Of a stretch of 29,731 nt of DNA, positions 4,773-5,720 are shown piece after piece. The stretch comes from Octopus sinensis (Eukaryota). A program made the position numbers and the translations under genes. Below the pieces are notes generated by a model. The model was not told where the DNA came from. It did no database searches and saw only the letters and a list, made by a program, of their open reading frames with translations. Position 1 is the stretch's first letter. Every line of letters begins with the position of its first letter. The stretch lies in contig NW_021832707.1 in NCBI RefSeq assembly GCF_006345805.1, positions 1-29,731 of the forward strand, written 5' to 3'.

Positions 4773-5045
4773 TTGCCAAGGCAACATATAAAAGTCGAGC
4801 AGTGTACGATTCTACCCAACCTACTTCCACTATGCACCCCTTTTTCTCACCACCGACATCTCAGTCCATTCACCGCCGCCTCTGTGTTTGCTTGACTGTC
4901 TGTCTGGTTGTCTGTCTGTCCAAGCTTAACTGGATCAGAAGACAACGCCGTCAAGCGATCGATTTACAAAGTACCATGTACAACACCATTGGCCAGCGAA
5001 GACAATTCACCGGCTGAGGCACAGATATAGAAAGATAGATAGATA

Positions 5046-5393
5046 ACTTTTTATTGTGGCCACACAGGGCTAAACACAGAATAAAAATGGACGAAATACA
5101 ATGTAGAGGTTTTACTTTTCGAGGTGGGATGGGTGGGACACAAAGAAAAAAACGTTCGATCAATAGGGATCTGTGGTTTGTGTGGTGTATAAAAAATATA
5201 ATATATATATATATAAATAAAGTTCACAGTTTAGGTGTAGCCCTGGAAAGAAAAACCTACAAAAAAGACCAAGGTCACCTCAGACAGTTCGAAAATGAAC
5301 ACATGAGTAAGTCACCTTACCTCTCGTTGTCTCTTTTGGTTACAGATTTACGCTTAAAATAGTGTCGTCTTTCATACTGACCATTTTTGCCAC
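5046..5393 (-). mobile_element. 3' fragment of an L1/Tx1-type LINE (last ORF2 codons plus 3' UTR), copy 1
   Basis: Aligns by eye to 20585-21043: 'ttattgtggccacacagggct', 'ttcgatcaatagggatc', 'tggaaagaaaaacctacaaaaaagaccaaggtcacctc'. The minus-strand translation VAKMVSMKDDTILSVNL* parallels VARMARMNYEAT.. of copy 3. (GATA)n lies on both sides. Confidence 0.75.
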
Positions 5394-5412
5394 ATAGATA
5401 GATAGATAGATA

Positions 5413-5537
5413 ACTTTCTTTATTGGCCACACAGAGCTGGACACAGAGGGGACAATTACAAATGTACAGCTTTTCTTTTCGAAGATGGAAAAGGAAACAG
5501 ATGTAAAATTTCGATGAAAAGGGATCGTGTATCACAG
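5413..5537 (-). mobile_element. 3' UTR fragment of the same L1/Tx1-type LINE, copy 2
   Basis: 'tttctttattggccacacagagctggacacaga...caattacaa...agcttttcttttcgaag...ttcgat..aaagggatcgtgtatcacag' matches 20586-20830. There is an AATAAA on the minus strand at the 3' end, and (GATA)n on both sides. Confidence 0.8.
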
Positions 5538-5720
5538 ATAGATAGATAGATAGATAGATAGATAGATAGATAGATAGATAGATAGATAGATAGATAGATA
5601 GATAGATAGATAGATAGATAGATAGATAGATAGATAATAGATAGATAGATAGATAGATAGATAGATAGATAGATAGATAGATGATAGATAGATAGATAGA
5701 TAGATAGATAGATAGATAGA
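5537..5720. repeat. (GATA)n microsatellite
   Basis: Near-perfect array. Confidence 0.98.

What the first reader, a model, noticed from the sequence alone, without database searches (positions are those of the whole stretch)
5030..5720. Two tandem LINE 3' ends stacked in one (GATA)n array: candidate GATA-targeting Tx1-type family
Seen: two separately truncated fragments in the same orientation (5046-5393, 5413-5537) are each bounded by GATA repeats on both sides. The long copy (20585-21683) also joins (GATA)n at its truncated 5' end. Established: several Tx1-clade LINEs are sequence-specific (Kibi and Koshi for TC/TTC repeats, Keno for U2 snRNA). Inference: this family targets (GATA/TATC)n, a specificity I do not recall being described. 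Repeats at 5' truncation points cannot be explained as a 3' tail.
Basis: partly seen in the sequence, partly recalled or inferred. Interest (0 to 1): 0.75.

Follow-up and report, generated by a model that had tools for sequence, protein, structure and literature searches.

The report
GATA-repeat-targeting LINE retrotransposons
These are truncated copies of three related jumping genes (LINE retrotransposons) that, in what is likely an octopus genome, mostly sit inside GATA repeats on one strand and in one register and pile up head to tail there, likely because their own enzyme cuts at that repeat; repeat-targeting LINEs are known, but I found no paper naming this target.

Summary
Confirmed, with corrections. 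The fragments at 5046-5393, 5413-5537 and 20584-21683 are 5'-truncated ends of three related L1/Tx1-group LINE families (67-73% alike), not one. Genome-wide, 5375 of 7475 exact 3' ends of the long copy's family run straight into TATCTATC, and 6756 into TATNT. In an unselected sample, 39 of 55 scorable 5' junctions abut same-strand TATC repeats and none the opposite strand (background 0.23%; control LINE 2 of 29). Duplications of 11-24 bp show that the flank is target DNA. Of 100 ends, 17 have a same-strand neighbour within 2 kb (0.6 expected). Full-length 6-kb copies encode an APE endonuclease and a reverse transcriptase. The RT tree groups them with U2-inserted Keno-type elements, apart from vertebrate L1. 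Cutting by the endonuclease is inferred, not shown. A sister family ending in (ATT)n has the same hairpin loop, so RNA pairing may help choose the repeat. Microsatellite-targeting Tx1 elements are known (Kibi, Koshi). I found no paper on a GATA target, but could not check Repbase, Dfam or two key papers. This scan noted the same habit five times in other genomes.

The parts
5027..5045 (-). 3' flank of fragment A: about three TATC units and a degenerate end (target DNA; likely holds the downstream copy of the duplication)
5046..5393 (-). Family A LINE, 5'-truncated: end of ORF2 and 3' UTR, AATAAA a few bases before the end, no poly(A)
   Evidence: 40 scored copies 93-100%; 60 of 87 exact ends followed by TATCTATC
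5394..5412 (-). 19-nt TATC spacer: 5' flank of A and 3' flank of B; fits two leftover units plus an 11-bp duplication made by A (inferred)
   Evidence: duplication sizes
5413..5537 (-). Family B LINE, 5'-truncated, 3' UTR only; joined to the array through 2-3 nt of microhomology; best relatives 81-97%
5538..5720 (-). (TATC)~46 array, 5' flank of B, far longer than a target-site duplication
20584..21683 (-). Family C LINE, 5'-truncated (last 1.1 kb of a 6.0-kb element): frameshifted ORF2 C-terminus with zinc knuckle and 3' UTR; one TATC unit on its 3' side
   Evidence: (39 other scored copies 95-96%)
21684..21751 (-). (TATC)~17 array, 5' flank of C
20196..20583 (+). Host site of C: a short interspersed repeat (SINE; the label is recalled) whose GA/TA/GATA tail received the insertion
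   Evidence: (inverted copies elsewhere in the window)

Best explanation
These are 5'-truncated copies of a lineage of L1/Tx1-group LINEs that sit in one strand and register of GATA microsatellites, likely because their APE endonuclease nicks the GATA strand just upstream of a TATCT word. Shown: the junction sequences, the duplications, the domains and the stacking. Inferred: the nick (5'-GATA^GATA-3' on the GATA strand) primes reverse transcription at the RNA's A-rich end without poly(A). A second nick 11-24 bp away makes the duplication. Truncated cDNA joins through 1-3 nt of microhomology. Each insertion leaves the repeat on both sides, so later copies land beside earlier ones in the same orientation. 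In the window, B likely came first and A then landed in its 3' flank. Full-length copies also carry a short, variable TC/TATC 'head' before their 5' end that follows the body lineage; it is likely copied through the RNA and may anneal to the target at second-strand synthesis.
For: 3' ends: 5375 of 7475 followed at once by TATCTATC and 6756 of 7475 by TATNT; family A 60 of 87; the exact 8-mer occurs at 0.026% of background positions. 5' junctions: of the first 74 ends on contig C1, 14 ran off the fetched DNA, 4 did not align and 1 lay at a gap; of the other 55, 39 had same-strand TATCTATC, 0 opposite-strand, and 30 had repeats beyond duplication range; background 0.23% in 200 kb. Family A 13 of 18, counted by eye after dropping 12 unresolved rows. 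Control LINE 2 of 29 on either strand. Arrays are about equally long on both sides (median 34 against 49 nt, p=0.20), as expected for insertion into existing arrays. Duplications that include non-repeat bases: 11 of 45 testable copies against 2.0 by permutation, p=5e-4; further clear ones in L021, L026, L050, L075 and L103. Copies whose 3' flank holds 0-1 TATC units exist (window C, L021, L075, L202), so there is no obligatory tail. Stacking: 17 of 100 ends have a same-strand neighbour within 2 kb, 0 opposite, 0.6 expected. ORF2 has Exo_endo_phos, RVT_1 and zf-RVT and aligns to human L1 ORF2p (E=5e-51). Heads: TCTC variants in the last 12 nt of 47 of 66 full-length against 2 of 39 truncated junctions; TATC-ending heads 0 of 10 against 15 of 23 across one starred split.
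Against: No nicking assay, so the endonuclease's role is inferred. The beta-hairpin loop is the same in the TATC families and in sister family D, which ends in (ATT)n. 16 of 55 5' junctions lack the repeat, 14 of 55 have a long 3' array but under 24 nt on the 5' side, and 34 of 45 testable copies show no informative duplication; window copy C shows none either. The control LINE is much older (71-80% identity) and its boundaries are less sure. The head-inheritance signal rests on one split of a weakly resolved tree.
Confidence: 0.65

Rival explanations
1. The endonuclease recognises only a loose TAT core, and the repeat type is chosen by pairing of read-through RNA ends (TATC or ATT) with the nicked target.
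For: No poly(A) at the 3' ends, so transcripts may run into the repeat. Same hairpin loop in TATC and ATT families. Some C' copies sit in TAT or TA repeats (L140, L021, L152). Target-like heads on full-length copies, repeated two or three times in L375 and L376. RNA-target pairing is proposed for other LINEs (PMC6007223, passages).
Against: Off-array copies show at most TAT of shared sequence at the 3' junction (L202, L075, L113), leaving little room for pairing. Endonucleases of TATC families A, C and E share the YAP-[PS]L-TG and D-Y-V-G segments that differ in D. These align with L1 loops that contact DNA (Asn118, Arg155; PMC8565326 and PMC1950540, passages; alignment).
Confidence: 0.25
2. 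The element has a TATC tail and creates the arrays; repeats at 5' junctions are duplications or later slippage growth, and insertion itself is only weakly specific.
For: 14 of 55 copies have a long 3' array with a short or absent 5' array. Family D ends in ATT in 30 of 30 copies but has ATT at only 3 of 11 scorable 5' junctions, which looks tail-like.
Against: Duplicated DNA is target DNA by definition and begins with TAT. 5' and 3' array lengths do not differ. 8 of 55 copies have a long 5' array and a short 3' one. Copies without a tail exist.
Confidence: 0.07
3. Random insertion with passive accumulation in repeat-rich DNA, or assembly artefact.
For: The genome is rich in microsatellites, and the window copy carries many indels that independent runs lack.
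Against: Fixed strand and register; TA, CA, TAA and ACAT arrays are 5-23 times commoner than GATA arrays in background yet seldom used; control LINE 2 of 29; GATA loose ends beside the 3' end also appear in contigs of two other runs (X9, X18).
Confidence: 0.02

Closest known systems
Kibi (TC)n and Koshi (TTC)n of teleosts; crocodilian Tx1 families on (TTCC)n/(TTTC)n (PMC4494074, abstract, passages and section 15; PMC3812793, passages)
   Same: APE-type LINEs of the Tx1 kind inserted in a specific microsatellite
   Different: Target here is (TATC)n with a TATNT core, in a mollusc; several families and over 7000 ends. No Kibi or Koshi sequence was on hand, so kinship to them is untested.
Keno (Tx1 clade, U2 snRNA; PMC4640811 and PMC6136364, passages)
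   Same: APE endonuclease. Three metagenome LINEs inserted in U2 have a 3' junction that reads A-run, G, TATCTG, the same TATCT word. They are among the nearest RT relatives after the unnamed close group (38-41%).
   Different: Keno targets a low-copy RNA gene. The tree does not make it sister to this lineage (polytomy), though sisterhood is not rejected (AU p=0.40).
Waldo (ACAY)n, Mino (AC)n and Dong (TAA)n (PMC3812793, passages)
   Same: Microsatellite-targeting non-LTR retrotransposons
   Different: Other clades (R1 for Waldo and Mino; R4 with a restriction-like endonuclease for Dong, recalled) and other repeats
Tx1-Mar/SINEU tandem insertions (PMC4494074, passages)
   Same: Sequential insertion gives tandem copies that sandwich a duplication
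   Different: Target there is a Mariner transposon

Membership tests
L1 group non-LTR retrotransposon (APE type) | ORF2 with N-terminal APE endonuclease, RT and C-terminal zinc knuckle | tested here: met
   Pfam PF03372, PF00078, PF13966; best PDB match human L1 ORF2p, E=5e-51, R2 far weaker
L1 group non-LTR retrotransposon (APE type) | Two ORFs, 5' truncation and inversion, target-site duplications | tested here: met
   6.0-6.1 kb full-length copies with ORF1 and ORF2; truncations and inversions; duplications
Tx1 clade | RT groups with Tx1-clade elements rather than with vertebrate L1 | tested here: inconclusive
   Lies in a 97/93 clade with U2-inserted Keno-type elements and a fish element with ZCCHC3-type ORF1 domains, apart from rodent and fish L1 and a Ciona group (39 of 96 RT rows, rooted on L1). 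References are labelled by target or Pfam, not by Repbase name; Tx1L, Kibi and Koshi absent. A quick 62-row tree with long-branch outgroups was mis-rooted.
Tx1 clade | ORF1 with RNA-binding domains and CCHC knuckle | tested here: inconclusive
   One CCHC motif is visible but Pfam zf-CCHC is below cut-off (E=0.26) and no ZCCHC3-type domain was found (two partial frames scanned)
Target-specific Tx1 family (Kojima's rule: target in more than 20% of flanks, PMC4494074 passage) | One repeat type in the flanks | tested here: met
   72% of 3' ends and 71% of scorable 5' junctions
Target-specific Tx1 family | Endonuclease cleaves the target in vitro | not testable with these tools
   needs a nicking assay
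Kibi/Koshi | (TC)n or (TTC)n target | tested here: not met
   61 of 74 3' flanks begin TATC; none begins with a TC or TTC repeat
Keno | Insertion in U2 snRNA genes | tested here: not met
   flanks of the sampled copies are microsatellites or unique DNA by inspection; no Rfam scan was run on these flanks

The most novel reading that the evidence does not exclude
The choice of microsatellite is carried by the RNA: target-like repeats at both ends of the transcript pair with the nicked DNA and are inherited as a 5' head, so sister families with the same endonuclease hairpin can switch between GATA and ATT. The TATCT core would be the ancestral Keno U2 site, relaxed onto a microsatellite, and these LINEs would be a main driver of GATA-array structure in octopod genomes.
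Probability: 0.2. Interest if true: 0.7.

Novelty: new variant of a known kind. Interest (0 to 1): 0.42.

Why it matters
How APE-type LINEs target microsatellites is described as not well understood (PMC3812793, passage). This genome holds families with unbroken ORF2 frames that end in different repeats (E on TATC, D on ATT; C and D endonucleases 65% identical, same hairpin loop). They form a natural pair for domain-swap tests of endonuclease against RNA control. In practice, thousands of GATA loci in octopods are interrupted by LINE ends with shared flanks, which would affect microsatellite marker design and repeat annotation.

Tried and rejected
Single-sequence AlphaFold model of the endonuclease: pLDDT 34, unusable. 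Protein atlas: no answer for two proteins. Homologue searches gave almost no named Tx1 references. RNA: no RNA holder listed. Idea that this lineage is sister to Keno: not shown by the tree, not rejected. Idea that the beta-hairpin loop explains GATA against ATT: rejected, the loop is the same. Idea that family D is as strictly targeted: weak, 3 of 11 5' junctions. First junction script dropped copies with identical flanks and was redone by coordinate. Literature searches without a GATA-targeting LINE. Kojima and Fujiwara 2004 and Fujiwara 2015 are not held. The supplement and the Fig. 3 target labels of PMC4494074 could not be seen and may list a GATA target.

Full report
Observation. In element sense the first locus reads (TATC)~46, B (125 nt), 19 nt of TATC, A (348 nt), three TATC units. 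The second reads (TATC)~17, C (1100 nt), one TATC unit, then the tail of a SINE. A, B and C align at only 67-73%. Each finds its own relatives in the 2.7-Gb genome: C 2523 candidates with 39 other scored copies at 95-96%, A 736, B 1752. The host is likely an octopod: the closest named ORF2 relative is from Argonauta at 65-69%, and I recall the SINE as an octopus one.

The element. Longer stretches gave full-length C copies of 6.0-6.1 kb; 186 exact 5' ends exist. ORF1 has one CCHC motif, below the Pfam cut-off. ORF2 has APE endonuclease, RT and zinc knuckle and matches human L1 ORF2p best. The 3' end has AATAAA a few bases before the end and no poly(A).

3' junctions. Of 7475 exact C/C' ends, 5375 run into TATCTATC and 6756 into TATNT. 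For family A it is 60 of 87. The register is fixed: 61 of 74 sampled flanks begin TATC, and position 5 is T in 71 of 74.

5' junctions, the decisive test. I took the first 74 ends listed on contig C1. Fourteen ran off the fetched DNA, 4 did not align and 1 lay at a gap. Of 55, 39 have TATCTATC on the element strand at the junction and none on the other strand; background in 20 fixed 10-kb stretches is 0.23%. Thirty of 55 still have the repeat 22-60 nt upstream. An old CR1-like fragment family (label from motifs I recall) gave 2 of 29; it is not age-matched. Arrays are about as long on the 5' side as on the 3' side (median 34 and 49 nt, p=0.20), though 14 of 55 are long only on the 3' side and 8 only on the 5' side. 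TA, CA, TAA and ACAT arrays are commoner than GATA arrays but are seldom used.

Duplications and stacking. Among 101 copies with both ends, 45 have a 3' flank that leaves the pure repeat early enough to test. Eleven show a duplication of 11-24 bp that includes non-repeat bases, against 2.0 by permutation (p=5e-4); lengths inside arrays are upper bounds, and one of the 11 is only a phase shift. The other 34 show none, window copy C shows none by inspection, and arrays mutate fast. Clear off-array cases (L075, L103, L202, L021) begin with TAT, so the word belongs to the target. Seventeen of the first 100 ends have a same-strand neighbour within 2 kb, none an opposite one, against 0.6 at random. 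In the window, B has few close relatives and A many, so B likely came first; the 19-nt spacer fits two leftover units plus an 11-bp duplication by A (inference).

5' heads. Prompted by note e1-8665938, I looked at full-length ends. TCTC variants lie within 12 nt of the 5' end in 47 of 66 full-length copies, against 2 of 39 truncated junctions and 1 of 49 3' flanks. L202 has 20 nt of TC/TATC between its duplication and the element, and L375 and L376 repeat the head two or three times. On a tree of 33 full-length bodies, TATC-ending heads fall 0 of 10 and 15 of 23 across a starred split (p=5e-4; one split only). The head is therefore likely part of the element's RNA. This does not affect truncated copies.

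Kinship. A metagenome scan gave three LINEs inserted in U2 snRNA (Rfam on 20 of 80 loci), that is Keno-type. Their 3' junction also begins TATCT. A careful RT tree of 39 of 96 rows puts this lineage in a 97/93 clade with them and with a fish element bearing ZCCHC3-type domains, apart from vertebrate L1 and a Ciona group. It is not sister to the Keno-type group in that tree, and the data do not reject sisterhood (p=0.40). No named Tx1, Kibi or Koshi sequence was available, so membership is likely but not settled.

Sister families. Following notes e1-9811961 and e1-10312530, I searched with a diverged relative. Family E ends in TATC and has unbroken ORF2 frames; family D ends in (ATT)n. D has 212 exact ends; 30 of 30 sampled end in ATT arrays, but only 3 of 11 scorable 5' junctions have ATT and none TATC. 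Endonucleases of A, C and E are 79-80% identical to C, and D is 65%. The beta-hairpin loop is the same in all; two other loops, which align with L1 segments around Asn118 and Arg155 (PMC8565326 and PMC1950540, passages), differ in D. This leaves endonuclease control and RNA pairing both open.

Other genomes. Contigs of four runs from four coded organisms hold the C sequence, two of them in thousands of pieces. GATA loose ends lie beside the 3' end in X9 and X18.

What is known. Kibi (TC), Koshi (TTC) and crocodilian Tx1 families (TTCC, TTTC) are in PMC4494074 (abstract, passages, section 15; figure labels and supplement unseen). A review list of microsatellite-targeting LINEs (ACAY, AC, TC, TTC, TAA) has no GATA entry (PMC3812793, passages). 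An octopus repeat annotation lists 13 recently active L1-Tx1 families and never uses the word target (PMC13282606, part 1 of 3 and passages). Keno: PMC4640811 and PMC6136364, passages. RNA-target pairing: PMC6007223, passages. Ten searches found no GATA-targeting LINE. Kojima and Fujiwara 2004 and Fujiwara 2015 were seen only as citations; Repbase and Dfam are not available. This scan noted the same habit five times in other genomes; those notes are not independent support.

Verdict. Real, strongly supported target preference of a known kind with a target I could not find in print. The enzyme step is inferred. Interest 0.42.

Noticed in passing
window 2611-4340 (+): A 5'-truncated LINE with RT (weak Pfam hit) and motifs I recall as a restriction-like endonuclease, bounded by (TAA)n on both sides (2469-2610, 4357-4534): likely a Dong/R4-type TAA-targeting element.
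   Followed up: partly
L258 5806-5947, L264 4675-4885, L267 5815-5977: Keno-type LINEs inserted in U2 snRNA; their 3' junction begins with the same TATCT word as the GATA-targeting families. L251, L254 and L258 also have U2 pieces in their 5' regions.
   Followed up: partly
L001, L006, L019, L025, L045: Five of the C copies scored are truncated within about 7 bp of the same point, with different junction letters: a truncation hot spot or a bias of the search ranking; unexplained.
   Followed up: no
L401-L434, L451-L480: Sister family D ends in (ATT)n, has several unbroken 1145-aa ORF2 frames and forms head-to-tail arrays with 15-18 nt ATT spacers.
   Followed up: partly
L384: Full-length copy whose 3' flank seems repeated over more than 30 bp upstream, followed by an extra TC/TATC head; not scored.
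   Followed up: no
L040, L048, L002, L008, L152: 5' inversions of the element (twin-priming-like structures) in several copies.
   Followed up: no
window 15770-16110 (-): Old CR1-like LINE fragment (label from recalled motifs; no Pfam hit), used as the control family.
   Followed up: partly
window 127-805: Six tandem copies of a 115-bp unit built from simple repeats.
   Followed up: no
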